Notes: a model not told the origin generated them from the sequence alone. DNA of 40,000 nt from Acidisphaera rubrifaciens HS-AP3 (GCF_000964365.1 NZ_BANB01000009.1:1-40000); one strand, 5' to 3'. Positions 16,245 through 35,367 are shown, numbered from the stretch's first letter. Numbers and translations are program-made.

Positions 16245-16252
16245 CGGGCAAG

Positions 16253-17980: not shown

Positions 17981-18016
17981 TAGCGCCAAAATACGCGATT
18001 GGTGTCCACCCTATGG

Positions 18017-18274: not shown

Positions 18275-18286
18275 TCCCCTAAACGG

Positions 18287-18315: not shown

Positions 18316-18330
18316 CTTCGCGTCGTCGGC

Positions 18331-19711: not shown

Positions 19712-19914
19712 CAGCCAGCAAAAAAACCGATGCCGAAGAGACTGAGAACGATGCCGATGGCGAGCATGGTGGCGAACTCCACGACCGAGTCGGACGTAAG
19801 GATCGCGCCTTCCACCACCATCATGGCGCAGACGCGAATATAGTCGAAAAGAGCCGAAGGCGTCAGCAGAAATCCGGCATGGTCGTTCGTTTGGCCTGTG
19901 TCTGTCGACGGCGC

Positions 19915-20850: not shown

Positions 20851-21166
20851 CGCGGCTTTCCTCGTCGGATCGGCCGCGCCCATCGCGGCCTTCATGGCGA
20901 CGAAGGCGGCGGGCGGGGCGGACCTGCACCCGCAGCGCAGCGAAGGGCCGAAGCGCCAGCGGAGGATGGCGTAGGCCGGCGATTTTGCTTCGCGATGGAA
21001 CGGCGCGCAGCGCCGCCGGAAAATCGTTGGCCGCAGCCATTGCCGGTCTGCACCGCATGGCGCCCGATCGCCCTCTCCAGAAGGCCGTGGGCGCGGTCCT
21101 CTCCGCCGCTTAGGGAAAGCCGGTCCATCGCGTGAGAAAGACGAGCCGCGCAGTCTTCCCTGCCGG

Positions 21167-22225
21167 CTATGCCGCCATCTCCATGAAGCGGGCGACGTCC
21201 TGCGCCGCGATCTGCTCCCGTATCGCCGCCCGGAGCGCGTCGATCCCCAGCAGCCGGAGATCCTCGTTGAAATCGCCTAGCCGTGGCGAAAGCACGAGCG
21301 CCTCGGTCCCGGCCGACTGCGCGCGGTCGCGGAGCATCGCCACCGCGCTATCGCCTGCCGGATCGTTGTCGCGGGCGATGTAGAGGCGTCGCAGCATGTC
21401 CGGGAACAGGATGGCCGAAAGATGCGCGGCCGAGAGCGCGGCTACCATCGGCATGGTCGGCAAGACGCAGCGGAGCGACAGCATTGTCTCGATGCCTTCG
21501 CCGGCGGCGAGGACCTCGCCTGCGACGCCGAAGCGCACCGCGTGGCCGAGCAGATCGCCCATAGCCCGTCTCGGCGTGTCGATCGGCGCTTTGCCGAGCG
21601 TCGCCTCGTTGAAGCCGTCAGGGTCGAGCCAGGTGCGATGCACGCCGGTCAGGCGACCCGCGAGATCGGTGACGGCGGCGATCATCGCCGGCCAAGTCTC
21701 GGTCGGGCTGTGCTCGTCCGGCCGGTAATAGCAGCGTGGATGGAAGCGCAGACTGCCGGTTCCGTGCAAAGCCGAAATGCCGCGTTGGCGCAAATACGCT
21801 TCCACGGGAGTGCGCTCGATGGGTTGCGACATAGCGAACAACCGGCGCGCTGCTTCGGAAGATCCGGCCGGCGCATCCGGCCTCGCTGGAGCGACGTTCG
21901 GCCACCGCGACGGTTCAGCAGGTTGCGGAAGGCTCAGGAAAGCGCGGGCTTCATCGACGACGTCCTTGAAGTCGGTAAGGCTGCGGCTCTCGAGGATGAT
22001 GTCGAGCAGATCGCCATGCTCGCCGGTGGCGGCGTCGGTCCATTTGCCGGGCGGACCTTTGGCCGTCTCCCTGAGACGCACGAACATGGACCGCCCCGGC
22101 GTGTTGCGGGCGTCGCCCACGACCCAGTAGGCGCCTTCGCGACGCCCAGCGGAGAGGTAATGGCGGCACACCGCCTCGGCATTGCGAGCGAGGCGGTGTG
22201 CCAGCTCAGCGGCGTTTTCCGCCAT
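21167..22225 (-). CDS. Toprim-domain (primase-like, DUF7146-type N-terminus) protein
   Basis: Start at ATG 22225 (MAENAAELAHRLARNAEAVCRHYLSAGRREGAYWVVGD). The Toprim-like region is LAAGEGIETMLS...LYIARDNDPAGDSA. Confidence 0.75.
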   Translation of the reverse strand: MAENAAELAHRLARNAEAVCRHYLSAGRREGAYWVVGDARNTPGRSMFVRLRETAKGPPGKWTDAATGEHGDLLDIILESRSLTDFKDVVDEARAFLSLPQPAEPSRWPNVAPARPDAPAGSSEAARRLFAMSQPIERTPVEAYLRQRGISALHGTGSLRFHPRCYYRPDEHSPTETWPAMIAAVTDLAGRLTGVHRTWLDPDGFNEATLGKAPIDTPRRAMGDLLGHAVRFGVAGEVLAAGEGIETMLSLRCVLPTMPMVAALSAAHLSAILFPDMLRRLYIARDNDPAGDSAVAMLRDRAQSAGTEALVLSPRLGDFNEDLRLLGIDALRAAIREQIAAQDVARFMEMAA

Positions 22226-22288
22226 GGCGAACTCCCAGACGAAAAAGGCCCGCCATCGCTGGCGGACCAATGAGGCGGATCGATACTT

Positions 22289-24406
22289 CTATTCTGCGGC
22301 GATGCGCTCGGGGCCGGATGCGTCGGCCTCATCTTCGCTTTCGACCGAGGGTTCTCCCATGGCCGTTTCATATCCGGCGACCGCCGTCTCTTCGACCTCA
22401 GGCGCGACCGGTGCGGATTGGTCTGTGCACGCGGCAGAGAGGTTGCCCGAGGGCGCGTGCCCAGGCGTCCGGAGCGGCTCCGGAAGCCAGCGCGCGTCCG
22501 CGAGCAGCGCCTCCGCTTTCACCGCCATGTCGCCTTTCTTCAAATGCTCGATGCTTTCCGCTGCGCGCTCCCCCTTCGACTCTGCAACAGCTTGCAAAAT
22601 CCGCCCTTTGGTGACGCGGCCGAGGAAGTTGTCGACGGTCGGCTGCCATCCTGCGGCGGCCATATCGAGATCGACGGCCTGGGCGAGTTGATCGGCATGG
22701 GCGAAAGCGCGCGGTCTCCGGTTCCATGCCTCATGCACGGCATTGACCGATAGGCTGACCACGTGGGCGAAAAGCGCGCCCCGACTGTCGCCGTCCCAGC
22801 CTTGCAGCGCATTCCATAGGTCGGCCGAGTTCTTCGGGAGCGCCTTTCCCCAGGTTTCGTGGCGAACGCGGATCGCCTCGGCCGCCGCGCTATCGTTCAG
22901 GCCTGGCGCCTGGGCGCTGAAGCTGACGCTCTTCAGATCGAGATCCAGGCAACTATCCGAACCGTAGTGATAAAACGCCTTCAGCGAGAGGGCGTGCAGG
23001 GCGGCGAGAAAGGCGACGTCGGGCCGTTCGCCGAGCGCCTGACGCAGGCCGAGCGTCCGGTGGGCGGTGAGTTCCGTCATCAACCGGTCCGAAATCGGAG
23101 ACAGGCCCTCGTCTTCCTCGGGTTGTGTCGGGGGTTCGTCCACCGTCACGCTATCCCCGCCGTAGCTCGCGGCCACGGGCCGGGCAGCCTGGTCGTCTGC
23201 CGCCGGACCGGGGTCGGACTGCGCCGGCAGCTCGTCCTCGGTGCGAACGTAGCCGCGCTCGACACGCAGGGTGCCGTCATGGGCTATGCTGACGAAGGCG
23301 CCGGCGCGAACAACGTCGGCAGGGTCGAACATGACTGGCCGAGTTTCGAAGGCTTCGATTGCGGTCTCGAGTTCGCCGAAGCGCTGATCGACGTCTTCGG
23401 GCAACTCGTCGGCGTCGGCATATTCCTCCGACAGCCGGTCGTATTCCGCCTGGAGCGCGCTGCGGGTTGCTTCCTCTTCGGCGGTGAGCGGCGCTTCCTG
23501 GCCGCGAAGCTGACGCAGGCCGAAGGTGTGACCGTAGGCGAAGTCGGGCGCGACCTCGATCCACTTCCACCCTTCGGCCGCGATCGCTTCGGATTCCGCC
23601 CTCAGCTTGTCGGCCACCATCTGATCGACCAGCGCGACGTCCTGCAGCCAGCCGCCATCGTCGCCCTGGAACAGGTCACGCAGGATGGCGCCGCCGGCTT
23701 CGACATACGCGTCCACGCCGATGAACTGTACCCGCTTGTCGGAGGCGCGGACGGCGCCTTCGGTCAGCATCCGACGAATGGTGTGCGGCTGCTTGTCATA
23801 GGAAGTTTGCAGCCGCTCGAACACCTGTTCCTGGCGCGCGTGATCGGCGGAGACGGTGAAGGCCATGAGTTGATCGAGAGTCATGCCGTCGTCGGCATAG
23901 GCGTCGAGCAGGGCCGGTGAGACCGAAGCGAGCTTCAGCCGCTGCTTCACCACATTGACCGAAACGAAAAACGCGGCAGCCATTTCCTCCTCGGACTGGC
24001 CCTTCTCGCGCAGCGCCAGAAAGGCCCGGAATTGATCGAGCGGATGCAGCGGCGCGCGCTGGACGTTCTCGGCCAGCGAGTCCTCCTCGGCGATGCCGCC
24101 CTCGCGAATCACGCACGGCACGGGCGCGGTCTTGGCGAGCCGCTTCTGTTTCACGAGCAGCTCCAGCGCCCTGTACCGGCGGCCGCCGGCCGGGATCTCG
24201 AATATGCCGGTCTCGACGCCGGCTTGGTCGATGACCGGCCGGACGCTGAGGCCTTGCAGCAGGCCGCGGCGGGCGATGTCTTCGGCCAGTTCCTCGACCG
24301 AGACGCCCGCCTTCACGCGCCGGACGTTCGATTGGCTGAGCACGAGCTTGTTGAAGGGGATGTCGCGCGAGGGAGCGAGGGTGATCTTCTGAACGGCGGT
24401 CGCCAT
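22289..24406 (-). CDS. ParB/Srx N-terminal-domain protein (705 aa, ICE-type ParB-like nuclease domain protein)
   Basis: IPFNKLVLSQSNVRRVKAG...LLQGLSVRP...FEIPAGGRRYRALELL is the ParB box with GGRR. Confidence 0.85.
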   Translation of the reverse strand: MATAVQKITLAPSRDIPFNKLVLSQSNVRRVKAGVSVEELAEDIARRGLLQGLSVRPVIDQAGVETGIFEIPAGGRRYRALELLVKQKRLAKTAPVPCVIREGGIAEEDSLAENVQRAPLHPLDQFRAFLALREKGQSEEEMAAAFFVSVNVVKQRLKLASVSPALLDAYADDGMTLDQLMAFTVSADHARQEQVFERLQTSYDKQPHTIRRMLTEGAVRASDKRVQFIGVDAYVEAGGAILRDLFQGDDGGWLQDVALVDQMVADKLRAESEAIAAEGWKWIEVAPDFAYGHTFGLRQLRGQEAPLTAEEEATRSALQAEYDRLSEEYADADELPEDVDQRFGELETAIEAFETRPVMFDPADVVRAGAFVSIAHDGTLRVERGYVRTEDELPAQSDPGPAADDQAARPVAASYGGDSVTVDEPPTQPEEDEGLSPISDRLMTELTAHRTLGLRQALGERPDVAFLAALHALSLKAFYHYGSDSCLDLDLKSVSFSAQAPGLNDSAAAEAIRVRHETWGKALPKNSADLWNALQGWDGDSRGALFAHVVSLSVNAVHEAWNRRPRAFAHADQLAQAVDLDMAAAGWQPTVDNFLGRVTKGRILQAVAESKGERAAESIEHLKKGDMAVKAEALLADARWLPEPLRTPGHAPSGNLSAACTDQSAPVAPEVEETAVAGYETAMGEPSVESEDEADASGPERIAAE

Positions 24407-24497
24407 GAGATGATACTCCGCGACGGGCGGCCGAAAGCCTCTCTCTCGGCCTGCAACCCGTCACGGAACACGGCGCCGCCCTCTTCCTCTGAGGGCA
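24407..24497 (-). promoter_or_regulatory. Structured 5' leader copy A (upstream of the ParB-like gene)
   Basis: It shares four collinear blocks (GACGGGCG, GCCTCTC, AACCCGTCAC, CTCTTCCTCT) with 25836-25925. GACGGG/CCCGTC form an inverted repeat enclosing a second stem, GCCGA/TCGGC. Confidence 0.6.
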
Positions 24498-24638
24498 GCG
24501 CCGCGAAACCATTGATTAGGATAGAGAAAGCTGCCGGTGACTACCAATCGGCGGGCCATTGACTACCAATCTGCCGAAGGCTGCGGTCTGGGTAGAAAGC
24601 CGGAAATGCGCAAATCCGCTTCTCCGGCTTTCCGGTAA

Positions 24639-25835
24639 TCAGGCTGCCCGGTCGAGCAGCCTCTTCGCCCGCGCCTCCAGGTCGAGCCGGGCGTCCTGGT
24701 GGGTCTTGCCGCGGGCGACGGCGGTGATGCCCTGCACGAAATCGAACACGCTCTCGGGTTTGCGACCTTCCTCGGCCAGCACCGTCTCGATGATTTTGGC
24801 TGTCTCGCCCTTCGAGAATCCGCGCTTGCGCAGGAACTCACTTCGATCATCGTCATTGCGGGCGACGATCTTTTCCCGCGCCGCCTTGATGCCGTTGACA
24901 AAGGGCATTGGCGAGGAATTGGCGAAGCGGGTGAGCGCCGGCGCCGCTTCGTGGGCGAAGCGCGAGGCGGCGTATTTGGAGTGCCGGATGGTGATCTCCT
25001 CAAAGTCCTCGACGCCCCACAGATTGCGGTTCTGGCAGACGGCGCGGAGGTAGAAGCTCGCGATGCCCAGCGTCTTGGCGCCGACCTCGGAGTTCCAGCA
25101 GTAGAAGCCGCGGAAATAGAGATCGGGCGAGCCGTCCGGCAGCTGTCCGGCCTCGATCGGGTTGAGGTCGTCCACTAGGAACAGGAAGACGTCGCGGTCC
25201 GAGGCGTAGAGCGTCGTCGTGTCCTGGGTGATGTCGACGGACGGGTTGTAGACCCCGGTGGACCAGTCGAGCACGCCCGGCACTTTCCAGCGCGTGTCGC
25301 CAGTCCCATTGCCGGCGATGCGCTGCACGGCGGCGACCAACTCGTGGTCGAAGATGCGGCCATAGTCCGGCCCGGTCACGGCGCGCAACTCGACGCGGCC
25401 ATCCTCGATCTCGAGCGTCTTGACCTGCTCGGCGCGGTGCGTGGTCAGACCGTATTGCAGGTTGATGCCAGCGAGCGGGGCGGGAAGTTGGCGCAAATAA
25501 GCGGCCGGGGCGCCGACCAGGCTGGCGAGCTGGCCAAAGCTCCAATGCGTTGGAGCGATCGGCGCCTCGGCCTCCGGTAGTATTAGCGTCAGGCGCTCGG
25601 CGTCGCCGCGGCTGGCGTCAACCCGGATCGCGGCGCTCTCCACCGTCCGGGTCCGGCTGCGTTCGGTCCGGCCGCGCACGGACGCAAAGAGCTCCGACAA
25701 GGAGAGATAGCGCTCGTCCGCCGGTCGGCTGAACCACTCCGACGATACGCGGCCGACGCGCTCGCCGCGGCTCACGTCCACCTTGTAGCCGCCGTTACGG
25801 CCGCGAGCGGCGTCCAGAACTTCCATCTGGGTCAT
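24639..25835 (-). CDS. DUF932-family protein
   Basis: 398 aa, MTQMEVLDAARGRNGGYKVDVSRGERVGRVSSEWFSRPADERYLSLSELFASVRGRTERS. The family assignment is from memory of this ICE gene set. Confidence 0.75.
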   Translation of the reverse strand: MTQMEVLDAARGRNGGYKVDVSRGERVGRVSSEWFSRPADERYLSLSELFASVRGRTERSRTRTVESAAIRVDASRGDAERLTLILPEAEAPIAPTHWSFGQLASLVGAPAAYLRQLPAPLAGINLQYGLTTHRAEQVKTLEIEDGRVELRAVTGPDYGRIFDHELVAAVQRIAGNGTGDTRWKVPGVLDWSTGVYNPSVDITQDTTTLYASDRDVFLFLVDDLNPIEAGQLPDGSPDLYFRGFYCWNSEVGAKTLGIASFYLRAVCQNRNLWGVEDFEEITIRHSKYAASRFAHEAAPALTRFANSSPMPFVNGIKAAREKIVARNDDDRSEFLRKRGFSKGETAKIIETVLAEEGRKPESVFDFVQGITAVARGKTHQDARLDLEARAKRLLDRAA

Positions 25836-25925: not shown

Positions 25926-26337
25926 TTCGGGAGGCTGGGTGGCTTATGTACGCGCCTTGAACACCGCAGCGCCCCCTAGGAACAACGAGCTTGGCGGACG
26001 TGCCTAGCCACGTTGGGGCGCACGATGGTCCGACACGCGTTGGCGCGGAGGTCGCCGCTTATCAGCAAAATTCCGCCGGTTAAGACGGCAATTAATCTCG
26101 GATTGGTCGGCGCTGCCGGCGCGCAGGTCCCGATAATTGTACCCTGCATCCACGCTTCGAGCATCTCGAACCTCTCGCTGGTGCACAATTTTTTCGAATG
26201 ATCTCTCCAGGGCTAGCTGAAGAATCGCGACTATGCTATCCTCCGCAGATAGTAGTCGATGTCGTCGGCACCCCAAGATGTGGGGTTTGCGAACGCGCTG
26301 ACTAGCAGGTGAGCAACATTTGGGGGCACAGTTATCT

Positions 26338-27297
26338 ATGCAGACGGCCGCCGTAATTGGAACCCAGGCTGTCCCAGTGGCGCGTTCGAACTTGTCGATC
26401 GTCACCATCTGCACTAAACAAAAGCGGTTCAAGCCATCGCCCGCGGGCACTCCGGCGGCGCTTACCGCCGCCACCCAGGCAGACCTAGCGGCCCAATGGA
26501 TAGCCGTGACGCAATCCCTGCCTCGCACGACGGTTGCCGCCAACCTCTACGCCGGACGCGCTTTCGGCCTTGCCCGAGACGCCGCGATGGTAACCGCCGC
26601 TCCGCTCTTCATTCTCTCAGCAGGCCTCGGCCTAGTGGCGTCCGACACGCCTGTTCCCGCCTATGGGTTGACGGTCTCGCGCAGCGGCGCGGAGTCCATT
26701 TGGAGCAAAGTCATCGGGCCGTTCGACGCGAGTCGGTGGTTCGCCGCGCTCACTAAAGGCCCCCACGCCGTCGGATGGGATAAGGTGTTCTCGCCGGGTT
26801 CGGGTCGCGTGCTGATCGCCCTGACCCGGCCCTATGCTGTGATGATCGCGCCGACGCTCGCAAGCCTGCCGCATGACGACTTAAAGCGGCTTCGCATATT
26901 CGGTGCCGGCCTCTCGACGCTCCTACCTCCGACTGTGCGCGAGGCCGTAGCCCCCTATGATGATCGTCTGGACACCATGATGCCGGGCACGCGGTCCGAC
27001 TTCGCTCAGCGCGCCCTGCTACATTTCGCGCAGCACATCGCAGTCGTTGCTCGCGATCAAAAGGGCGACGCCGAGGCGGTCAAATGCGCGCTCGCGCCGG
27101 TCCGCGCACCTTTGCGGCCGACCCGCCGGAGTGGGTCGGACGCTGACATCCTAACCTTGATCAAAGCTCGCCTAGCGCCGGGCGCGAGCGCGAGTCGATT
27201 GCTGCGTCAACTCCGGGACGAAGACTACATCGCCTGCGAACAGGGCCGTTTCACTGAGTTGTTTCGCCAGGCAAAAGCCGAGGACTGCGCGTCATGA
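26338..27297 (+). CDS. Uncharacterized first gene of the deazaguanine operon; YaaA(DUF328)/DUF6884-like N-terminal signature plus a helical C-terminal tail
   Basis: IVTICTKQKR ... ANLYAGRAF ... LFILSAGLGLVASDTPVPAYGLTV parallels the ISPAK ... Y.G ... LSGLYGVLRPLD...PYRLEM layout of YaaA-like proteins. There is an alternative TTG start at 26320. The stop overlaps the next ATG (ATGA). Confidence 0.4.
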   Translation: MQTAAVIGTQAVPVARSNLSIVTICTKQKRFKPSPAGTPAALTAATQADLAAQWIAVTQSLPRTTVAANLYAGRAFGLARDAAMVTAAPLFILSAGLGLVASDTPVPAYGLTVSRSGAESIWSKVIGPFDASRWFAALTKGPHAVGWDKVFSPGSGRVLIALTRPYAVMIAPTLASLPHDDLKRLRIFGAGLSTLLPPTVREAVAPYDDRLDTMMPGTRSDFAQRALLHFAQHIAVVARDQKGDAEAVKCALAPVRAPLRPTRRSGSDADILTLIKARLAPGASASRLLRQLRDEDYIACEQGRFTELFRQAKAEDCAS

Positions 27298-28436
27298 CCC
27301 GCCCAAAGAAGACCGGGGAGCCTATTCTGGCGGTGCGCGCCGTTCGGACGTTCCAGGCCGAGAAGGCCGTCTACGCCTTCTTCCTCGCCGGCGCGGACTT
27401 ACTGAGGATCGCAGACCTCTCACGGGTGCATCGCGATGCCGAGGGCTCGCTCCATGGGTTTCAACGGAAGGGCATCAGGAGCCACGTCCAGGCAATCACC
27501 GACTATCTTAACCACGGCCCGGCCCTCTTCCCGAATTCCATCATCCTGGCCATCTCGCCGCGTGCACGATTCACCGCAGCACGGGGTGAGCGGCCGGAAG
27601 GCGACTTGCGTGTGGCGGAGGCCGGTACTCTACGCATCCCCGTGCCAGTGGATGGAACGCGTGCCGCCTGGATCGTCGATGGTCAGCAGAGATCACTCGC
27701 TCTATCCCAAGCCAAGGATAAGGCCTTTCCCGTCCCCGTGGTTGCGTTCGCTTCGGAAGATCTTTCCGTCCACCGGGAACAGTTCATCCTGGTAAACAAG
27801 GCCAAGCCACTTGATCCGCGCCTGATCAATGAATTGCTGCCTGAGGTCGACGCGTACTTCCCGCGCGACCTCGCAGCGCGAAAGATCCCGAGCCTGTTGG
27901 TGCATCGGCTTCAGACGGCGGCGGATTCGCCATTGCAAGGCCTGATCCGGCGGGTGTCGGAGGAAGAGAACACAGCGGTCATCATCGACTCCGCGCTGAT
28001 CAAGGGGATTCGCCAAAGCATCGCCAGTGGGTTGGGCGCTTTGGGACCGCTCAGGGCCAGCGGTTCGCAACCGGCCGATGTCGATGGCATGTATCGAGTG
28101 CTCACCGCGTTTTGGTCCGCCGCTCGAGACGCCTTCCCGGAGGCGTGGGGTCGACCTGCGACTGAGAGCCGGTTGATGCATTCGGCGGGCATCGAAGCCA
28201 TGAGCCTGCTTATGGACAGAGTGATGTCGCGGGCTGCGCCGGGTGTCGATCTCTACACCCACGCCTATGAGGCTCTTAGTCGTGTAGCCCCGCACTGCCA
28301 TTGGACCTCGGGTCGGTGGGCGGAACTGCAACGTGATTGGAACGAAATCCAGAACGTTGCCCGCGACATCAAGATGCTGTCGAGCCACCTCGCTCGTCTC
28401 GACCACCTCTACGCCTTCGCCAAGGTGGCTTCGTGA
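27294..28436 (+). CDS. DGQHR-domain (DndB/DpdB-like, ParB/Srx superfamily) protein, paralogue 1
   Basis: 380 aa with HGFQRKGIRSHVQAITDYL, AAWIVDGQQRSLAL and REQFILVNKAKPL. The motif reads DGQQR rather than DGQHR. Confidence 0.8.
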   Translation: MTRPKKTGEPILAVRAVRTFQAEKAVYAFFLAGADLLRIADLSRVHRDAEGSLHGFQRKGIRSHVQAITDYLNHGPALFPNSIILAISPRARFTAARGERPEGDLRVAEAGTLRIPVPVDGTRAAWIVDGQQRSLALSQAKDKAFPVPVVAFASEDLSVHREQFILVNKAKPLDPRLINELLPEVDAYFPRDLAARKIPSLLVHRLQTAADSPLQGLIRRVSEEENTAVIIDSALIKGIRQSIASGLGALGPLRASGSQPADVDGMYRVLTAFWSAARDAFPEAWGRPATESRLMHSAGIEAMSLLMDRVMSRAAPGVDLYTHAYEALSRVAPHCHWTSGRWAELQRDWNEIQNVARDIKMLSSHLARLDHLYAFAKVAS

Positions 28437-29722
28437 GATTCATCTTCGCCGACAGCTTGGATACGATCGACCCGGCATACGACTTTGTCGCTGACCGCAA
28501 CGGCGCAGGCCGCACGGTCCACCGAGACGATCAATATCCTCACGAATTTCTCGACCAGGCGCCCTACGATGGCATCCTAGTGTCGCGCGGGATCGTCGGT
28601 GACGCTCGCCACCCGGGAAAGTATTCCGAGGCGCAGTTGATGCGGTTTCGGCGCGAGGGCGCCCGCCGGTTCCTGCGTTACCCGCTTGAGCGGTTCCCGG
28701 ATAGCGTGGTGATGGGAGACTGCGGGGCGTTCACTTACCGCAACCTACCCGAACCGCCGTATAGAGCCAGGGACACAGTAGAATTCTACGCGGACGGTGG
28801 CTTCTCCCATGGCTGTGCGCCTGACCACCTGATCTTCGATTTCGACGACGTGGGTGTCGAGCGGGCGCTGACCGATGTCCCCGAAGACATTCGCAAGCGG
28901 TACGAGATCACTCTTCAAAACGGCGTGGAGTTTTTCGCCGAGGCCGCACGGCTGGGGCCTGGCTTCACCCCGATGGGGGTCATCCAGGGCTGGTCGACCC
29001 GGAGTATGGCGGACGCCGCCCGCCAACTCGCCGCAATGGGCTTCAACTACCTGGCCATCGGCGGAACCGTCCCGCTGAAGATCAATCAGATCCGGCGGGT
29101 CCTGGCGGCTGTGCGGGACGCCCTGCCGAACACGGTGCGGCTCCACCTGCTCGGCTTTGGGAAGATCGAAGAGCTTCGATCTTTGGAGGACTTTGGCGTC
29201 ACTAGCTTCGACACGACATCACCGCTTTTGCGGGCCTTCAAGGACGCACGCAAAAACTACTGGGCGCGGACCGCAGACGGCGATCTGTCCTACTACACGG
29301 CTATTCGCATTCCCCAAGCCACCGAGAATAACAAGCTCAAGCATAAGGCGCTTGAGGGCAGCTTGAATCAAGAGGCGGCGCGCCACCTCGAAGACGCCGC
29401 GCTCAAATGCGTGAGGGCCTATGCAACGGGCGAGGCCACCCTCGATCAGAGTCTGGATGCCATCATGGCCTACTGGGCCGCGCTCAACTGGGACGAAGAA
29501 AACTCGCCCAGTCGCCGTGCCGACGCGGCGGCGCGACAGCGCCAAGTCTATTCCGAGACCCTGGCCGACCGACCATGGGAGCATTGCGGGTGCCGCGTCT
29601 GTCGGGAGGGCGGTGTCGAAGTGCTGATCTTCCGGACCTCGAACCGCAACAAGCGGCGCGGCATGCACAACCTCCATGTCTTCCACACGCACGTCAACGA
29701 ATTTCGGCAGGAAACCGTATGA
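28433..29722 (+). CDS. dpdA: DpdA-like DNA (7-deazaguanine) transglycosylase, TGT superfamily
   Basis: The GTG at 28433 overlaps the upstream stop (GTGA). Matches are VRFIFADSLDTIDPAYDF, VMGDCGAFTY, VIQGW, LHLLGFG and FDTTSPL, plus the TGT zinc motif HCGCRVC...MHNLH. The gene sits among DGQHR and queCDE genes. Confidence 0.85.
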   Translation: MRFIFADSLDTIDPAYDFVADRNGAGRTVHRDDQYPHEFLDQAPYDGILVSRGIVGDARHPGKYSEAQLMRFRREGARRFLRYPLERFPDSVVMGDCGAFTYRNLPEPPYRARDTVEFYADGGFSHGCAPDHLIFDFDDVGVERALTDVPEDIRKRYEITLQNGVEFFAEAARLGPGFTPMGVIQGWSTRSMADAARQLAAMGFNYLAIGGTVPLKINQIRRVLAAVRDALPNTVRLHLLGFGKIEELRSLEDFGVTSFDTTSPLLRAFKDARKNYWARTADGDLSYYTAIRIPQATENNKLKHKALEGSLNQEAARHLEDAALKCVRAYATGEATLDQSLDAIMAYWAALNWDEENSPSRRADAAARQRQVYSETLADRPWEHCGCRVCREGGVEVLIFRTSNRNKRRGMHNLHVFHTHVNEFRQETV

Positions 29723-30801
29723 GCGAGACCCACCTTTCATTCGACGCCCTGGTCCCGGCGCAAAGCCGCAATATGACCGTCTTCACCTTCGTGGCGAAGG
29801 CGGCAGACATCGCTCGATTCGCCCGAATCGAGCGCGCCGGGCGTGCTGCCGACGGTATGCTGCAGGGTTTCCAGCGTCCGCAGATCGCCGCCCACATCCG
29901 GGAGATCCGCGACTATCTCGAGAAACCTAACGCAATTCTACCTAATCCGATCGTTGTGGCCTTCCTGGGCAAGGCCGAACTCGAACCGTCTCGTAAGGCG
30001 AAGGAATCGCGGCGCCTGAAGATCGACATCAGCGATGGGCCGCCCGGCTGGATCGTCGATGGACAGCAGCGATTCACGGCACTGTCGGAGCTCTACGGAA
30101 GGGAGTTCGAAGTACTGGTCTCCGGGTTCCTCTGTGAGTCGGAGGAGGAGTTGCAGAAGCAGTTCATCCTAATCAACAATACTCGCCCCCTGCCAAAGGC
30201 ACTAATCTATGAATTGCTGCCGCAGGTCGCCGACCTGCCACCGCGGATGTCAAGTAGATCTCAGGCCGCGCTGCTCACCGAAGCCCTTAACTATCGCGCG
30301 GGCTCAGCGCTCAAGGGCCTGATTAAACAGCAGACGAACCCGAAGGGCGTGATTCGCGATACAGTCCTCCAACGGGTCATTATGAACTCGCTAAGCGACG
30401 GCGCCTTGCGTCTCTACGCCGGTGACGACGCGCTTCTGCTGAGCAAAGGCGTCGAACTGATCAGCGAATATTGGCACGCTGTGCAGACGGTTTTCGCCAC
30501 TGATTGGGATGGGAAGACTCCCAAAGACTCCCGGCTCATTCATGGGACCGGCATCATCGCCCTGGGCTATGTGATGGACTACCTTAACGCCGTCACCGGT
30601 GCCGAGGCTCGCGACGAGTTCGCTCGCGGACTGCGTCCGCTGAAAGGCAAGACAGCTTGGTCCTCCGGCGAGTGGCACTTCGGCGAAGAGCGCCGGCGGT
30701 GGAACGGCTTGCAGAACGTCCCCGCAGACGTCCGCCAATTATCCTTCTATCTCCTGGACGTCATCAAGGCGGCACTCGCCGAACAAGCGCGGGCAGCCTA
30801 A
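29719..30801 (+). CDS. DGQHR-domain (DndB/DpdB-like) protein, paralogue 2
   Basis: The ATG at 29719 overlaps the dpdA stop (ATGA). Matches are LQGFQRPQIAAHIREIRDYL, PGWIVDGQQRFTAL and QKQFILINNTRPL. It is collinear with paralogue 1 along its whole length. Confidence 0.8.
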   Translation: MSETHLSFDALVPAQSRNMTVFTFVAKAADIARFARIERAGRAADGMLQGFQRPQIAAHIREIRDYLEKPNAILPNPIVVAFLGKAELEPSRKAKESRRLKIDISDGPPGWIVDGQQRFTALSELYGREFEVLVSGFLCESEEELQKQFILINNTRPLPKALIYELLPQVADLPPRMSSRSQAALLTEALNYRAGSALKGLIKQQTNPKGVIRDTVLQRVIMNSLSDGALRLYAGDDALLLSKGVELISEYWHAVQTVFATDWDGKTPKDSRLIHGTGIIALGYVMDYLNAVTGAEARDEFARGLRPLKGKTAWSSGEWHFGEERRRWNGLQNVPADVRQLSFYLLDVIKAALAEQARAA

Positions 30802-30803
30802 CG

Positions 30804-31439
30804 ATGGTCGCATACGCCGTTAAAGAGATTTTCTACACGCTGCAAGGCGAGGGCCGGCATGCGGGCCGCGCCGCCGTCTTCTGTCGCTTCGCAGGCTGTA
30901 ATCTCTGGAGCGGCCGCGAGCAAGATCGAGGAACAGCGACCTGTCGCTTCTGCGACACGGACTTCGTTGGCGTTGATGGTCAGGGTGGCGGGCGTTTCCA
31001 GGACGCTGCCGCCCTCGCTCAGGCGATCTCCGACGCCTGGATCGGCCGGGGAGGCCGCCGCCTCGTTGTATTAACCGGCGGCGAACCTCTGTTGCAGGTC
31101 GACGAATTACTCATCGAGCGCCTACACGCCATGGACTTCGAGGTGGCAGTGGAAACGAACGGCACCGTCCCCGCGCCGGCTGGACTCGATTGGATTGCGG
31201 TCAGCCCAAAGGGGAACGCGAAACTCCAAATCCTGCAGGGGAATGAACTCAAGCTGGTTTATCCCCAACCCGAGGCACTGCCGGACCGTTTCGAGGAGTT
31301 GGCATTTGCTCACCACCTCCTCCAACCCATGGACGGGCCCGACCTTGCGGCCAACACAGCCGCTGCCGTGGCTTACTGTCTGGCTAACCCGCGTTGGCGG
31401 CTCTCCCTACAATCACACAAAGTTCTGGGGATTCCCTGA
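30804..31439 (+). CDS. queE: 7-carboxy-7-deazaguanine synthase (radical SAM)
   Basis: MVAYAVKEIFYTLQGEGRHAGRAAVFCRFAGCNLWSGREQDRGTATCRFCDTDF has the C-x14-C-x2-C cluster motif of the short QueE type. GGEPLLQ also matches. Length is 211 aa. Confidence 0.9.
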   Translation: MVAYAVKEIFYTLQGEGRHAGRAAVFCRFAGCNLWSGREQDRGTATCRFCDTDFVGVDGQGGGRFQDAAALAQAISDAWIGRGGRRLVVLTGGEPLLQVDELLIERLHAMDFEVAVETNGTVPAPAGLDWIAVSPKGNAKLQILQGNELKLVYPQPEALPDRFEELAFAHHLLQPMDGPDLAANTAAAVAYCLANPRWRLSLQSHKVLGIP

Positions 31440-31816
31440 TGTTCGAACTCAGCAAGGAATTTCGATTCGACGCGGCCCACACGCTAGAACGCGTGATCGA
31501 CACAGAGCCGAGCCGCCGAATTCATGGCCATTCCTACCGAGCCGAGGTAGTGATTCGGGGTCGCCCAGATCCTCAGACCGGGATGATCATGGACCTTGGG
31601 CTCTTCGAGCGTGCGCTGGAATCTGCTCGGGAGGGCCTCGATCATCGGTTCCTCGACGAACTCCATGACCTTGGTCCCTCGACGATGGAAAATCTATCGG
31701 CCTGGATCTGGCGCAAGGTCGAACCCGTCTGTCCCGACCTCTGGCGCGTTACCGTGCGTCGCGACAGTGATCAGGGCGCATGCAGCTATTTCGGCCGGGA
31801 GGGTCAAGGGGTATGA
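31439..31816 (+). CDS. queD: 6-carboxy-5,6,7,8-tetrahydropterin synthase
   Basis: [41 protein letters not shown]...MIMDLG...LDHRFLDE. The HGH zinc site is present. The position of the usual Cys in CxxxHGH reads Ser (SRRIHGH). The start overlaps the queE stop (TGATG). Confidence 0.85.
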
Positions 31817-32514
31817 GCGATGGCGGCGCGCTGGTTTTGTTTTCTGGCGGCCAGGACTCGGCGACCTGTCTCGCCTGGGCGCTGAGCCGTTTCGATCGAG
31901 TGGAAACGATCGGGTTCGACTACGGCCAACGTCATCGGATCGAGTTGGACGTGAGAACCCGTTTCCTGGGCGAGATCCGGACGGCATTTCCTCAATGGGG
32001 CCAACGCCTGGGAAACGATCATCTGCTCGACCTGTCATCGCTTGGCCGGATCAGCGACACCGCGTTGACGACCGGCGCCACCATCGCCTTCGCCAAGAGT
32101 GGACTGCCGAACACCTTCGTGCCAGGTCGCAACTTGTTGTTCCTGACCTACGCCGGCGCAATCGCCTACCGTCGCGAGATTAAGCACCTCGTGACCGGGG
32201 TCTGCGAGACAGACTATTCCGGCTATCCGGACTGCCGCGACGACACCATCAAGGTCGTCCAGGTGGCGCTCAACCTGGGAATGGACAAGCGCTTCGTAAT
32301 ACACACGCCGCTCATGTTGATTGACAAGGCGGCAACCTGGTCTCTTGCGACCCAATTGGGCGGGCTACCCCTGGTCGAGTTGATCGTCGAGCACTCGCAC
32401 ACCTGTTACGAAGGTGATCGGACCCAGCGGCACGCATGGGGATATGGTTGCGGCGCCTGCCCAGCCTGCAATCTTCGCGCCCAAGGTTACGCAATTTGGG
32501 CATCAGACGCCTAG
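31813..32514 (+). CDS. queC: 7-cyano-7-deazaguanine (preQ0) synthase
   Basis: [24 protein letters not shown] carries the PP-loop SGGxDS; FDYGQRH also matches. The C-terminal Cys cluster is CYEGD...[11 protein letters not shown]. There is an ATGA overlap with the queD stop. Confidence 0.9.
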
Positions 32515-32797: not shown

Positions 32798-34849
32798 CTA
32801 TAGCCGTCGGCGCGCTTCTGCCCCCGACCAGTCCTCAACAGCGCGGACGATGCTCGTTGCCCCTCGGCCGGTTGCGTATACAAGCGGTCGGGCGCCCCGA
32901 CGCGACTTGATAAAGTCTGTCGCAGCATGTTTGGCAGATGCCCAGACAACCACTACAAGCTCTGCTCGAGCAACCATGGCGCCGAGAGCAGCGCTGCCAC
33001 CATGGTCGTGGTTGAGTTCGACCGTGAGGTTTGGGATCGCCGCCTGAAGCAAAGCCTCCGCCTGCCGGGCGGCGGGTTCGGTGAGTGTATAAATGCCCAC
33101 AACCTTGCCTTCCAGCGCAGCGCTGTTGAGGGCGGTCTCGGTCGGTGAGGGCGTGACGCCGAGGTCGATGCCCACCTCAGCAGCAAGCGCGGTCAGTGTC
33201 AGACGCTGACCTTCCGTAAGGCGCGGCCAGAGCGGGATAAGAACTGAGATTACGTCGATGCTGAATTCTTGCAGCCGGGTGGGGACGATAGGTGTGAAAC
33301 TTCGCGCGATCTCTACGAGCTCGAGGGCGTCGTAGGCGGACGTGCGGCTCAGGCCTTCGCTAGCGATGGTCTGCGCGGCATCCAGGGCGTCACGGTACTC
33401 CGCGACGGACAGACCGCACTTTAGTGCACCGTCGAGCAGGCCCGCTGCCGAGCGGAGCGCTGTCTCACCGCGACGGGCGCTCAGTGCCATGCGGGTGAGG
33501 GTTGCGAGATAGACCGGGCAGAGGTCCCGGCGCGGCCACCGTGGGTCCGACTGCGCCCATTGCACCAGGTAAGGGATCGCTTGTCCAAAGCGTTCTTCGG
33601 CCAACCCATCGGGAATGAGTTCGATCTTGGCGGCTAGCGCGCGCGCGGCGCCGACATCAGTGTCCGCGTCGGGCAGTCGCCAGGTGGTCGCTCCGGCGGC
33701 GGCCGCCTCGGCAGAGGCGAAGTCGTCCCTGGATAGGGCGTCCACCCAGGTGGACCAGTCGAAGGGTGGTTCGTGATCGCCCGCTCGCTCCAGCACCTCC
33801 TGCCAAATCGCGCGGTTGGCAGGGCGGCGGAAGAGATCATGGCGCGAATCAGCGCTGAGAGCGTTGACGGCGTCGCGTAACGCCGCATCGGCCGCAGGGT
33901 CGCCTTCGGCGGGTAATCCCGCCACGGTTATCAGCGCCGCGCGCGCCACAGCTAGCGGATCGTTCGTCGGCTCCGCATCGCGAGGGGCTGTTGACTCTTG
34001 TGGGACCTCCTGTCGCAGCGGCGGCACAAGGATGGCGCGCAGCCACTCGACTGCCGGTCGAGAGGGATCGGGGGCGATGCCAAGGAGCAATCGCGCGTAT
34101 TCCATCGCCGGATCGCTTCGCACCAGGTCGGGCGCGCGCTCGGCCGCCGCGTCGCTGTCGTAAACGGACGTCCAGTAGATGGCCTCGATTAGAATCTCGG
34201 CGGTGGCGGGCGCAGGCCCCGCCAGCGCCAGCGCTTCGAAGCGGTCGTGCCAACGGATAGCGCCCCAATCGCCTGCGACGGATAGGATCTGGACCTCGAG
34301 TTGGACGAGGTTGAGCGCCTCGAGGCGTGACTCTTCGCGCAGTACGGCGAGGATGCGCCAGGCCTCGGTGACGTCGCCGCCATTGAGAGCGTCTTGCAGC
34401 GCCGCGAGCAGACGCGAGGTCGGTTCAGGCCGGGCGATCGCAAGATCTGGAGCGCCCTCCAGGAGACTCGCTAACCGCACCAGGGCGCGTACCGCCACCG
34501 CCTCGCCTTGAGCATAGTTCCCGGGCTGAAGGCGCGCGGCTATCGTGATCCCAGCCCCAAGCAGTACTTGATCGACTCCGCGGGCGGGGTCGAGCGGCAC
34601 GGGTGCGCCCTCGAAGTCGGTGAACGTAGGACCGGCAAACGCGAGAAGCAGAGGCTCTAGCTTTCGCCATTCGGCTGGCGTTCGGGCAGCCGCGTAAACT
34701 ACGAGGTTGCCGCTTGGATCACGGACCGGAAACATCGCGCCCGGAAAGCGGGTCGACTGGAGGGTCGACGTCAAGCTGCGGGCACCCGCTGTGAGACTGT
34801 CCCAGTCGGCGGCTGCGGCGAGCGCCCCTAAATCGAGCGTTAGCCCCAT
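32798..34849 (-). CDS. Uncharacterized 683-aa protein, mostly helical, with a DUF2325-like C-terminal domain; last gene of the helicase-PLD operon
   Basis: The C-terminus KVVGIYTLTEPAARQAEALLQAAIPNLTVELNHDHGGSAALGAMVARAELVVVVWASAKHAATDFIKSRRGARPLVYATGRGATSIVRAVEDW follows the DUF2325 layout (strand, h.Dg.g, aDlVvv...sH, K....plv, s.S). The start overlaps the PLD gene's 3' end by 10 nt. Confidence 0.45.
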   Translation of the reverse strand: MGLTLDLGALAAAADWDSLTAGARSLTSTLQSTRFPGAMFPVRDPSGNLVVYAAARTPAEWRKLEPLLLAFAGPTFTDFEGAPVPLDPARGVDQVLLGAGITIAARLQPGNYAQGEAVAVRALVRLASLLEGAPDLAIARPEPTSRLLAALQDALNGGDVTEAWRILAVLREESRLEALNLVQLEVQILSVAGDWGAIRWHDRFEALALAGPAPATAEILIEAIYWTSVYDSDAAAERAPDLVRSDPAMEYARLLLGIAPDPSRPAVEWLRAILVPPLRQEVPQESTAPRDAEPTNDPLAVARAALITVAGLPAEGDPAADAALRDAVNALSADSRHDLFRRPANRAIWQEVLERAGDHEPPFDWSTWVDALSRDDFASAEAAAAGATTWRLPDADTDVGAARALAAKIELIPDGLAEERFGQAIPYLVQWAQSDPRWPRRDLCPVYLATLTRMALSARRGETALRSAAGLLDGALKCGLSVAEYRDALDAAQTIASEGLSRTSAYDALELVEIARSFTPIVPTRLQEFSIDVISVLIPLWPRLTEGQRLTLTALAAEVGIDLGVTPSPTETALNSAALEGKVVGIYTLTEPAARQAEALLQAAIPNLTVELNHDHGGSAALGAMVARAELVVVVWASAKHAATDFIKSRRGARPLVYATGRGATSIVRAVEDWSGAEARRRL

Positions 34850-35367
34850 TGAAGGCTCCCACTCCAGCGCTCCTGAAGGGCGAGTCGGCGTGACGCGGCG
34901 GCCTGTCTATCAACTCGAAGAAGGACGTGCTCGTCGCTCGCGGTTAGGCCACTCAGTGTTAGGTTCATGGAGCCACCGAAGATATAATCCTCGCCGACGA
35001 CCGCTTTCTCGTGAGCGGCAGGGGCGATGGCGAGGCCCAGACGCCCATCCGTCTCCAATTGGAGATCCCGGAGGGAGCGGATGAAGAGGGCGTTGTGATC
35101 GACCTCACGGACGACGACACAGAGGCGGCCGCTTCGATTTGCCAGGGCTTTGATGACCTCGGTCAGGCGAATGGAGGCTGCCGGCCAGTCCGGGCGCACG
35201 GCGCTGAAGGCGCGGGCGGTGTTGTCAATAACCTCAACGTTGGAGATCCAAGCCGACAGAATCCAGAGCTCTGGACTGGGTCGCAGCAGTTCCGACAGTA
35301 ACAGTGTTTGCAGGGTGTCGCGGATCGCCCGACTCTGCCACGGACCGCTGTAATCACGGCTCAGCAT
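34840..35367 (-). CDS. Single-HKD phospholipase-D-family nuclease (DpdK-like)
   Basis: AAHEKAVVGEDYIFGGSMNLT is an HxK...GSxN PLD motif. The ATG at 35367 overlaps the helicase stop (TGATG). Length is 175 aa. Confidence 0.75.
   Translation of the reverse strand: MLSRDYSGPWQSRAIRDTLQTLLLSELLRPSPELWILSAWISNVEVIDNTARAFSAVRPDWPAASIRLTEVIKALANRSGRLCVVVREVDHNALFIRSLRDLQLETDGRLGLAIAPAAHEKAVVGEDYIFGGSMNLTLSGLTASDEHVLLRVDRQAAASRRLALQERWSGSLQWG

What the first reader, a model, noticed from the sequence alone, without database searches (positions are those of the whole stretch)
26320..32514. Dpd-like 7-deazaguanine DNA-modification operon with a non-canonical gene set
**Seen in sequence.** Seven co-directional genes are tightly coupled: ATGA at 27294, GTGA at 28433, ATGA at 29719, a 2-nt gap at 30802, TGATG at 31439 and ATGA at 31813. 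They encode:
- a YaaA/DUF6884-like protein;
- a DGQQR protein;
- a TGT-superfamily protein with DpdA hallmarks (N-terminal FIFADSLD, GDCGAF, LLGFG and zinc motif CGCRVC...H);
- a second DGQQR protein;
- QueE, QueD and QueC.

**Established knowledge.** In the dpd (7-deazapurine in DNA) islands first described in Salmonella Montevideo, DpdA with the DndB-like DpdB inserts preQ0 into DNA. DpdC then converts it to the 7-amido form. QueC, QueD and QueE make preQ0.

**What is unusual here.**
- Two full-length DGQHR-type paralogues bracket dpdA instead of one partner.
- An extra leading gene of a different fold is present.
- The whole preQ0 branch is fused into the same coupled operon, without folE or queF, so the end product should be preQ0.
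- QueD shows Ser where the CxxxHGH Cys is expected.

I cannot tell from memory which of the three non-TGT proteins, if any, corresponds to canonical DpdC.
Basis: partly seen in the sequence, partly recalled or inferred. Interest (0 to 1): 0.85.

Follow-up and report, generated by a model that had tools for sequence, protein, structure and literature searches.

The report
Ordinary Dpd DNA-modification island, two-DpdB type
This is a genuine 7-deazaguanine (Dpd) DNA restriction-modification island carried next to a conjugative element, and its seemingly odd gene set (two DpdB ATPases, a leading DUF6884 gene, fused preQ0 genes) is the standard layout in about 150 other proteobacterial loci, so it is a new example of a known system.

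Summary
Seven translationally coupled genes lie at 26320-32514, with every junction as described.

The interpretation as a non-canonical gene set does not hold:
- **The leading gene is DpdC.** It matches PADLOC DpdC at 9e-75 over its full length and Pfam DUF6884.
- **Both DGQQR proteins are DpdB.** They pass the NCBIfam DpdB equivalog model (428 and 395 bits, cutoff 300).
- **The TGT protein is DpdA.** It scores 533 bits and matches PDB 7UI4 at 3e-91.
- **The restriction module is present.** DpdD, DpdK and DpdJ follow convergently and run to the window end.

The order dpdC-dpdB-dpdA-dpdB-queE-queD-queC recurs exactly in 41 of 62 related genome loci. The B-A-B core is in 56 of 62 genome loci and about 60 metagenome contigs. 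RefSeq already annotates it, for example in the Caulobacter sp. S6 plasmid. Published surveys report 801 extra dpdB copies, DpdC as DUF6884, and preQ0 genes in about 27% of islands.

With DpdC present, the expected DNA product is dADG, not only dPreQ0.

Two points remain open:
- **Roles of the two DpdB paralogues.** They are 34% identical and both intact. Recurrent DpdC-DpdB1 fusion proteins hint that the upstream copy works with DpdC.
- **The QueD Ser.** The Ser replacing the catalytic Cys is real and typical of this lineage.

The parts
26320..27297 (+). dpdC (DUF6884 protein; predicted to convert dPreQ0 in DNA to dADG). TTG 26320 has an AGGTGA 8 nt upstream; an in-frame ATG at 26338 is an alternative start.
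   Evidence: PADLOC DpdC PDLC02815 at E=9e-75, residues 27-321 against profile 9-308/312. Pfam DUF6884 at 40.6 bits, cutoff 30. NCBIfam has no DpdC model: even the Enterobacter DpdC gets no hit. Sequence read.
27294..28436 (+). dpdB1, the upstream ParB-like DGQQR ATPase paralogue
   Evidence: NCBIfam NF041060 DpdB at 427.9 bits, cutoff 300, full length. PADLOC DpdB at 6e-125. Present in 60 of 66 genome loci and 61 of 62 metagenome loci with room upstream. DGQQR in 61 of 61.
28433..29722 (+). dpdA, DNA-guanine transglycosylase that inserts preQ0 (GTG start overlapping the dpdB1 stop)
   Evidence: NF041059 DpdA at 533 bits, cutoff 200. PDB 7UI4 (S. Montevideo DpdA) at E=3.3e-91 over residues 2-420. 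Catalytic equivalents D96, F100, D131, G210/G211, L240, D260, F269 and Cys385/387/390 are present.
29719..30801 (+). dpdB2, the downstream DpdB paralogue, in the position of the single DpdB of the Salmonella-type cluster
   Evidence: NF041060 DpdB at 394.9 bits. 34% identical to dpdB1. Present in 63 of 63 and 58 of 58 loci with room downstream. The canonical order dpdC-dpdA-dpdB is seen in pPOL9A.
30804..31439 (+). [quoted passage not shown]
   Evidence: TIGR04508 at 344 bits, cutoff 240.
31439..31816 (+). queD-like PTPS-family gene with Sx3HGH in place of Cx3HGH
   Evidence: PF01242 at 102 bits. Below the NCBIfam QueD cutoffs, 70 against 89. Closest PDB entries are bacterial QueD 2OBA and 4NTK at about 1e-22. 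Ser type found in 30 of 58 sister operons and in all 120 nearest database homologues.
31813..32514 (+). [quoted passage not shown]
   Evidence: TIGR00364 at 196 bits, cutoff 150.3; PF06508 at 223 bits.
32798..34849 (-). dpdD (restriction module, convergent with queC)
   Evidence: NF041061 DpdD at 512 bits, cutoff 300.
34840..35400 (-). dpdK (PLD-like protein of the restriction module)
   Evidence: NF041068 DpdK at 176.7 bits, cutoff 100.
35367..39968 (-). dpdJ (large DEAD/DEAH helicase-family protein). The rest of the restriction operon, dpdI to dpdE, would lie beyond base 40000.
   Evidence: NF041067 DpdJ at 1586 bits, cutoff 800. Order dpdD-dpdK-dpdJ-(I)-H-G-F seen in pPOL9A.
942..25835 (-). 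Conjugative-element backbone next to the island: TrbK/E/C/B, TraG coupling protein, DUF3363 relaxase, SLT, ParA, RepA, DUF7146-Toprim and a ParB-like protein
   Evidence: Pfam hits. About 75-77% DNA identity to alphaproteobacterial conjugative plasmids.

Best explanation
The region is the modification half of a bona fide Dpd (7-deazapurine in DNA) restriction-modification island. It has the two-DpdB architecture that is widespread in Alpha-, Beta- and Gammaproteobacteria, and it sits as cargo beside a Trb/TraG-type conjugative element.

**Proposed mechanism**
- QueD, QueE and QueC convert host-made dihydroneopterin triphosphate into the free base preQ0. FolE is supplied by the host.
- DpdA exchanges specific guanines in duplex DNA for preQ0. 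This reaction needs ATP hydrolysis by a ParB-like DpdB.
- DpdC then hydrates the nitrile in DNA to give dADG.
- The convergent dpdD-dpdK-dpdJ genes, continuing beyond the window, restrict DNA that lacks the mark.

**Shown here**
- Family membership of every gene.
- Conservation of the catalytic residues of DpdA and of the DGQQR NTPase motif in both DpdB copies.
- Conservation of the whole gene order in about 100 independent loci.

**Inferred from the Salmonella Montevideo biochemistry**
- The chemistry of each step.

**Inferred and uncertain**
- The division of labour between the two DpdB paralogues.
- My preferred reading is that the downstream copy (DpdB2) is the DpdA partner. It holds the canonical position and is never lost.
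- The upstream copy (DpdB1) would be an accessory that acts with DpdC or pairs with DpdB2. It is sometimes lost and in some lineages is fused to DpdC.
For: - **Curated models.** DpdA, DpdB (twice), DpdD, DpdK, DpdJ, QueE and QueC all pass equivalog cutoffs. DpdC is identified by PADLOC and Pfam.
- **DpdA.** It aligns end to end with the crystallised S. Montevideo enzyme and keeps its catalytic residues.
- **Gene order.** The seven-gene order is identical in 41 of 62 genome loci. The B1-A-B2 core is in 56 of 62. In metagenome contigs the flanking DpdBs are present in 61 of 62 and 58 of 58.
- **Existing annotation.** RefSeq annotates the same order in plasmids of Caulobacter sp. S6 and Skermanella rosea.
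- **Canonical comparator.** Enterobacter pPOL9A, whose DpdA is near-identical to 7UI4, has dpdC-dpdA-dpdB followed convergently by dpdD-dpdK-dpdJ.
- **Both paralogues intact.** 46 columns are at least 95% conserved and identical in B1 and B2, including GFQR and DGQQR.
- **Asymmetry between the copies.** Seven loci lack B1 and none lack B2.
- **Fusions.** DpdC-DpdB1 fusions form a conserved family. DpdA-DpdB fusions also exist.
- **Literature.** Roles of DpdA, DpdB and DpdC are in PMC10164549. Extra dpdB copies, DUF6884 and preQ0-gene linkage are in PMC12235509.
Against: - No biochemical data exist for this two-DpdB architecture.
- The window's DpdC is only 24% identical to the enterobacterial DpdC.
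- QueD lacks the Cys that is reported to be essential. De novo preQ0 synthesis from this operon alone is therefore not guaranteed.
- dpdE to dpdI are not visible because the window ends at 40000.
- AlphaFold2 gave no confident DpdC-DpdB1 interface in the fusion protein, with pTM 0.44.
Confidence: 0.9

Rival explanations
1. DpdB1 and DpdB2 form an obligate heterodimeric ATPase clamp that replaces the DpdB homodimer of the Salmonella system. Both would then be needed for DpdA to insert preQ0.
For: - S. Montevideo DpdB is a homodimer whose ParB-like domains are proposed to dimerise on ATP.
- The two genes bracket dpdA with overlapping stop and start codons, which suggests equimolar synthesis.
- Both keep all shared invariant residues.
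- Both are about equally distant from the single-copy DpdB.
Against: - Seven loci within the same DpdA clade have lost DpdB1 cleanly and keep DpdC, DpdA and DpdB2. DpdB2 alone therefore appears sufficient there.
- The fusion partner of DpdB1 is DpdC, not DpdB2 or DpdA.
Confidence: 0.3
2. The two paralogues have split roles. DpdB2 powers DpdA-catalysed preQ0 insertion. DpdB1 works with DpdC, for example by exposing the preQ0 base in duplex DNA for hydration to ADG.
For: - A conserved family of about 690-residue DpdC-DpdB1 fusion proteins exists: at least 25 clusters at 41-100% identity, found on many contigs. Each is followed by a separate dpdA and dpdB2.
- Independent DpdA-DpdB fusions exist in other lineages.
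- dpdB1 lies directly next to dpdC.
- B1 was never found without DpdC, 0 of 114 loci.
Against: - S. Montevideo DpdC converts preQ0-DNA to ADG-DNA without DpdA or DpdB in vitro.
- DpdC persists where B1 is lost.
- DpdC is near-universal in this clade, so the co-occurrence carries little weight.
- No confident inter-domain packing was predicted in the fusion.
Confidence: 0.3
3. One reading: a Dpd-like but non-canonical system with an unassigned accessory protein, whose final product is preQ0 rather than ADG.
For: - The type system has one DpdB.
- ORF1 has no NCBIfam hit.
- queF and folE are absent from the operon.
Against: - ORF1 is a full-length DpdC.
- The missing NCBIfam hit is a gap in that library, not a property of the protein.
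- The architecture is common and already annotated.
- The literature reports extra dpdB copies.
Confidence: 0.05
4. The queD-like gene is not a 6-carboxytetrahydropterin synthase. It would be a repurposed T-fold enzyme, by analogy with phage DpdL, so that the operon makes or modifies a different 7-deazaguanine.
For: - The Cys of Cx3HGH is described as catalytic and required.
- DpdL, a QueD paralogue without this Cys, is proposed to be a CDG decarboxylase.
- Sx3HGH is not among the described PTPS motif classes.
- The protein scores below the NCBIfam QueD cutoffs.
- Some Bradyrhizobium loci and L015 add a second, Cys-type PTPS after queC.
Against: - In sister operons the same slot between queE and queC holds an ordinary Cys-type QueD, in 23 loci.
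- The zinc ligands and the Asp-His pair are conserved.
- The Ser type also occurs as a plain chromosomal queE-queD pair away from any dpd genes.
- Most Ser-type loci have no other PTPS gene within 10 kb.
- QueC is present, unlike in the DpdL phages.
Confidence: 0.2

Closest known systems
Dpd restriction-modification system of Salmonella enterica serovar Montevideo (dpdA-K). DpdA structure is PDB 7UI4; biochemistry is in PMC10164549.
   Same: - DpdA, DpdB, DpdC, DpdD, DpdK and DpdJ are all present and pass the family models.
- Layout is the same: a modification operon beginning with dpdC, and a convergent dpdD-dpdK-dpdJ module.
- The DpdA catalytic residues and the DpdB DGQQR motif are conserved.
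   Different: - A second DpdB paralogue sits between dpdC and dpdA.
- queE-queD-queC are coupled onto the 3' end of the modification operon.
- Proteins are only 24-39% identical to the enterobacterial ones.
- DpdA has Gln where S. Montevideo has His181.
RefSeq-annotated dpd operons of Caulobacter sp. S6 plasmid NZ_CP073079 and Skermanella rosea pSR-1, plus about 100 genome and metagenome loci (L001-L158)
   Same: Identical gene order: dpdC-dpdB-dpdA-dpdB-queE-queD-queC. DpdA is 45-92% identical. The Ser-type QueD is present in about half of them.
   Different: - The restriction genes downstream vary or are replaced.
- Some loci lack queE, queD or dpdB1.
- The window copy lies beside a conjugative element.
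DndB and SspE, ParB-like DGQHR proteins of phosphorothioation systems
   Same: Same superfamily and the same DGQ(H/Q)R NTPase motif. Pfam DndB matches both DpdB copies. SspE gives a weak structural match.
   Different: Both copies score far above the DpdB-specific equivalog cutoff and far below the Dnd-specific models. No dnd or ssp genes are nearby.
E. coli QueD (PDB 4NTK) and the phage QueD paralogue DpdL
   Same: PTPS/T-fold family. The HGH zinc motif, the N-terminal His and the Asp-His pair are conserved. The closest solved structures are bacterial QueDs.
   Different: - Ser replaces the catalytic Cys. Tyr replaces it in a Xanthomonadales subgroup.
- Unlike DpdL (LxxxHRH), the HGH motif is intact and QueC is present.

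Membership tests
Dpd system, modification module | DpdA: a TGT-family DNA-guanine transglycosylase passing the DpdA equivalog model | tested here: met
   NF041059 at 533 bits against a cutoff of 200, residues 1-423 on profile 1-405/406. PDB 7UI4 at E=3.3e-91.
Dpd system, modification module | DpdA catalytic residues (S. Montevideo Asp95, Asp130, Asp256, Phe99, Phe265) and the Cys-rich zinc site | tested here: met
   D96, D131, D260, F100, F269 and C385/C387/C390/H412 align with them and are invariant in alignment A1. His181 is Gln185 here.
Dpd system, modification module | DpdB: a ParB-like ATPase with the DGQQR motif | tested here: met
   Two copies, NF041060 at 428 and 395 bits against a cutoff of 300. 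DGQQR in both. The motif is described for S. Montevideo DpdB.
Dpd system, modification module | One DpdB per dpdA, as in the type system | tested here: not met
   Two paralogues, 34% identical. This is not a defining feature: extra dpdB copies are reported in the literature and are the norm in this clade.
Dpd system, modification module | DpdC (DUF6884 protein) adjacent to dpdA and dpdB | tested here: met
   PADLOC DpdC at 9e-75, full length. Pfam DUF6884 above cutoff. As a control, the enterobacterial DpdC hits PADLOC DpdC models and DUF6884.
Dpd system, restriction module | dpdD to dpdK genes next to the modification genes | tested here: inconclusive
   DpdD, DpdK and DpdJ are present above cutoffs. 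dpdE to dpdI would lie beyond the window end at 40000.
Dpd system | dPreQ0 and dADG present in genomic DNA, and restriction of unmodified DNA | not testable with these tools
   Needs LC-MS/MS and transformation or phage assays.
preQ0 pathway (QueC, QueD, QueE) | QueE and QueC pass their equivalog models | tested here: met
   TIGR04508 at 344 bits (cutoff 240). TIGR00364 at 196 bits (cutoff 150.3).
QueD (PTPS-I) | Cx3HGH signature with the catalytic Cys | tested here: not met
   The sequence is SRRIHGH. TIGR03367 scores 70.3 against a cutoff of 89.25. PTPS fold-family membership is met: PF01242 at 102 bits.
YaaA / DUF328 | Match to the DUF328 (PF03883) profile or to the YaaA structure | tested here: not met
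   Pfam returns only DUF6884 for ORF1 at E up to 0.01. There was no sequence hit in the PDB. Foldseek of a model containing the DpdC domain found nothing significant. One paper calls DpdC DUF328 and another calls it DUF6884.

The most novel reading that the evidence does not exclude
In the two-DpdB class of Dpd systems the ParB-like ATPase would have split into two dedicated motors. DpdB2 serves the transglycosylase DpdA. DpdB1 serves the nitrile hydratase-like DpdC, as hinted by recurrent DpdC-DpdB1 fusion proteins. ADG formation in DNA would then be ATP-assisted in most proteobacterial Dpd systems, unlike the Salmonella paradigm in which DpdC acts alone. A side point is that these operons run preQ0 synthesis with a QueD that lacks the supposedly essential Cys.
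Probability: 0.3. Interest if true: 0.5.

Novelty: new member of a known kind. Interest (0 to 1): 0.22.

Why it matters
For the scan, this finding should be downgraded. It is a correctly recognised but ordinary Dpd island, already covered by NCBIfam and PADLOC models, RefSeq annotation and a 2025 survey.

Its residual value lies in two open questions:
- **The common architecture is untested.** The experimentally studied Salmonella system, with one DpdB, is not the most common layout in Alphaproteobacteria. The two-DpdB layout and the DpdC-DpdB1 fusions offer a cheap, testable handle on what the ATPase actually does.
- **The Ser-type QueD.** A widespread QueD with Ser in place of Cys questions the stated requirement for the catalytic Cys.

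The island's position beside a conjugative element fits the known horizontal mobility of dpd.

Tried and rejected
- **DpdC-DpdB1 interface.** AlphaFold2 of fusion protein P0279 gave confident domains (mean pLDDT 80.6) but pTM 0.44, so the result is inconclusive.
- **Which paralogue is orthologous to the single DpdB.** BLAST (38% against 35%) and paralogue-specific HMMs (312 against 301 bits) are nearly tied. 74 single-type representatives are intermediate. The question is unresolved.
- **A relocated catalytic Cys in the Ser-type QueD.** Rejected. The PxCP and C-terminal Cys residues are not conserved across Ser-type sequences; the Brevundimonas-like ones have neither.
- **Ser-type QueD as a dpd-specific invention.** Rejected. 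The same type occurs as chromosomal queE-queD pairs without dpd genes.
- **Operon boundaries.** Promoter and terminator scans found no more than shuffled controls.
- **Riboswitches and tRNAs.** No Rfam family, including no preQ1 riboswitch, and no tRNA in the window.
- **Original 2016 PNAS paper and the GATOR-GC supplements.** Not held in the library, so I could not check whether the two-DpdB layout was among the strains analysed by mass spectrometry.
- **Literature on DpdB1/DpdB2.** No relevant paper found.

Full report
**Observation**

Listing ORFs over 22-37 kb shows seven co-directional ORFs on the + strand between 26320 and 32514.
- ATGA at 27294
- GTGA at 28433
- ATGA at 29719
- TAAcgATG at 30799-30806
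- TGATG at 31437-31441
- ATGA at 31813

The DpdA-type motifs FIFADSLD, GDCGAF, HLLGFG and CGCRVC...H are in the translation, as are the two VDGQQR motifs. The QueD sequence SRRIHGH is also there.

**What the genes are**

- **DpdA.** NCBIfam equivalog models identify the third gene as DpdA (533 bits, cutoff 200).
- **DpdB, twice.** Both DGQQR proteins are DpdB (428 and 395 bits, cutoff 300).
- **QueE and QueC.** Both pass their models.
- **QueD.** It falls below the NCBIfam QueD cutoffs but is a clear PF01242 member.
- **Restriction module.** The same search shows the system continues on the other strand: DpdD (32798-34849), DpdK (34840-35400) and DpdJ (35367-39968) all exceed their cutoffs. 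The finding's coordinates therefore cover only the modification half.
- **DpdC.** The leading gene has no NCBIfam hit. It is Pfam DUF6884 and a full-length match to PADLOC DpdC at E=9e-75. The missing NCBIfam hit is a gap in that library. The DpdC of a Salmonella-type cluster gets no NCBIfam hit either, yet it hits PADLOC DpdC and DUF6884.
- **DpdA detail.** It aligns end to end with the crystallised S. Montevideo enzyme (PDB 7UI4, E=3.3e-91). It keeps the residues shown by mutagenesis to be essential, Asp95, Asp256 and Phe265, here D96, D260 and F269. It also keeps the base-binding Asp and the Cys cluster. His181 is Gln here.

**Is the gene set unusual?**

I scanned one genome per species (GTDB) with DpdA and obtained 68 loci. 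A tblastn census gave these results for the 62 loci with room on both sides:
- 41 have exactly the window's order, dpdC-dpdB1-dpdA-dpdB2-queE-queD-queC.
- 56 have the dpdB1-dpdA-dpdB2 core.
- The downstream copy is present in 63 of 63 loci with room downstream.

A metagenome scan added 80 contigs with DpdA 45-85% identical. The upstream copy is present in 61 of 62 and the downstream copy in 58 of 58.

RefSeq already annotates the same order, with both genes named DpdB, in plasmids of Caulobacter sp. S6 and Skermanella rosea.

The published GATOR-GC survey of 2335 unique dpd islands makes three relevant statements (PMC12235509):
- DpdC is the DUF6884 protein.
- About 27% of islands co-localise with preQ0 genes.

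The link between dpdA and preQ0 genes was part of the original discovery (PMC5699537). DGQQR is the motif described for S. Montevideo DpdB (PMC10164549). Each feature listed as unusual is therefore either canonical or a common, already recorded variant.

**Comparison with the type system**

Enterobacter cloacae pPOL9A carries a DpdA that is practically the 7UI4 protein (892 bits). Its order is dpdC-dpdA-dpdB, followed convergently by dpdD-dpdK-dpdJ-(I)-H-G-F. The window has the same layout with two insertions:
- dpdB1 between dpdC and dpdA.
- queE-queD-queC after dpdB2.

By position, dpdB2 corresponds to the single DpdB.

**The two DpdB paralogues**

- They are 34% identical to each other.
- They are 35% and 38% identical to the enterobacterial DpdB.
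- Paralogue-specific HMMs score the enterobacterial protein 301 and 312 bits. Seventy-four single-type representatives are likewise intermediate. The duplication is old and orthology by sequence is unresolved.
- Across 124 B1 and 133 B2 sequences, 46 columns are at least 95% conserved with the same residue in both, including GFQR and DGQQR. Only six columns are fixed differently. Neither copy looks degenerate.
- Seven loci, mostly Sphingomonas, have lost dpdB1 cleanly, with dpdC abutting dpdA. None has lost dpdB2.

A search of 1.84 billion cluster representatives found DpdA-DpdB fusion proteins of 750-800 residues and DpdC-DpdB1 fusions.

The DpdC-DpdB1 fusion is a conserved family of about 690-residue proteins, with at least 25 clusters at 41-100% identity. 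One example, Candidatus Accumulibacter, appears on more than 20 contigs. In these loci the fusion gene is followed by separate dpdA and dpdB2 genes and the convergent dpdD-dpdK-dpdJ. Two of 117 dpdC/dpdB1 pairs in my census are fused.

This hints that DpdB1 acts with DpdC. The hint is weak for three reasons:
- S. Montevideo DpdC works without DpdB in vitro.
- DpdC persists where B1 is lost.
- AlphaFold2 predicts no confident inter-domain packing, with pTM 0.44.

**QueD**

The Ser at the Cys position is real and conserved. Among 58 sister operons the slot between queE and queC holds three types:
- A Ser-type protein in 30.
- An ordinary Cys-type QueD, about 37% identical, in 23.
- A Tyr-type protein in 5.

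All 120 nearest database homologues are Ser-type.

The zinc ligands and the Asp-His pair are kept, and no other Cys is conserved. The Ser codon is mostly AGY, one step from TGY, with a few TCN.

The literature calls this Cys catalytic and required (PMC9894224; PMC10516641). The described PTPS motif classes do not include Sx3HGH.

The Ser type is not dpd-specific. It also occurs as a plain chromosomal queE-queD pair. In Bradyrhizobium and one other locus a second, Cys-type PTPS follows queC.

I consider it most likely a functional QueD of a lineage-typical kind. The alternative, a changed activity like that proposed for phage DpdL, is not excluded.

**Context**

Bases 1-25.8 kb encode a conjugative-element backbone:
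- TrbK, TrbE, TrbC and TrbB
- TraG coupling protein
- a DUF3363 relaxase
- SLT
- ParA and RepA
- DUF7146-Toprim
- a ParB-like protein

This backbone is about 75-77% identical at the DNA level to alphaproteobacterial conjugative plasmids. The dpd island is thus cargo or a neighbour of a mobile element, in line with the known mobility of dpd. The dpd region has slightly lower G+C, 0.60-0.63 against 0.65-0.70. No Rfam family and no tRNA were found in the window.

**Mechanism and verdict**

- QueD, QueE and QueC make preQ0 from host H2NTP.
- DpdA, with DpdB-driven ATP hydrolysis, inserts preQ0 into DNA.
- DpdC converts it to dADG.
- DpdD to DpdK restrict unmarked DNA.

The chemistry is inferred from the Salmonella work. 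Family membership, residue conservation and gene order are shown here. The expected DNA product is dADG with minor dPreQ0, not preQ0 alone.

This is a new member of a known kind. Interest is low, apart from the untested roles of the two DpdB paralogues and the Cys-less QueD.

Noticed in passing
L164:8001-10082, L167:8001-10070, L104, L132 (related loci); proteins P0122, P0271-P0294, P0298: DpdC and the upstream DpdB paralogue are fused into one protein of about 690 residues (DUF6884 + DndB). The family is conserved and occurs, for example, in Candidatus Accumulibacter. The fusion gene is followed by separate dpdA and dpdB2 genes. This may indicate that DpdB1 works with DpdC.
   Followed up: partly
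proteins P0150, P0174, P0185, P0194, P0202 (cluster representatives, no context available): DpdA-DpdB fusion proteins of 750-800 residues exist in several divergent clusters. The DpdB part is of the single-copy type.
   Followed up: partly
window 31439-31816; sister loci L001-L158; L159:6001-6372, L160:6001-6375: The QueD subfamily has Ser (or Tyr in Xanthomonadales-type loci) in place of the catalytic Cys of Cx3HGH. It is conserved in dozens of species, inside dpd operons and also as chromosomal queE-queD pairs. The literature states that QueD is inactive without this Cys.
   Followed up: partly
L071:9130-9567, L072:9147-9584, L015:13384-13854: In Bradyrhizobium elkanii and one MAG, a second Cys-type PTPS gene (145 aa, KCKNVHGH) follows queC in operons that already hold the Ser-type QueD. 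In Bradyrhizobium it is followed by PycTM-like and HAD-like genes.
   Followed up: no
L028, L029, L031, L032, L035, L088 (dpdC directly abuts dpdA); L034: A Sphingomonas/Rhodospirillales subgroup within the same DpdA clade has lost dpdB1 but keeps dpdC, dpdA, dpdB2 and queE/D/C. The upstream paralogue is therefore dispensable there.
   Followed up: partly
window 942-25835: Conjugative-element backbone: TrbK/E/C/B, TraG at 7393-9381, DUF3363 relaxase at 10459-12294, SLT, ParA, RepA at 15189-16604, DUF7146-Toprim at 21167-22270, and a 705-aa ParB-like protein at 22289-24406. No integrase or tRNA is seen in the window.
   Followed up: partly
window 9496-10446 (+): An ORF on the opposite strand to the transfer genes gives a Peptidase_U49 (Lit-like) Pfam hit at E=2.4e-6. 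It may be a second defence or exclusion gene on the element.
   Followed up: no
window 28433-29722 (DpdA residue 185): DpdA has Gln where S. [quoted passage not shown] Gln is the majority residue in the eight-sequence DpdA alignment A1.
   Followed up: partly
L012, L036, L041, L043, L044, L046, L016, L017 and others: Several sister operons lack queE, or lack both queE and queD, while keeping queC. The preQ0 branch attached to dpd is often incomplete and must rely on host genes.
   Followed up: no
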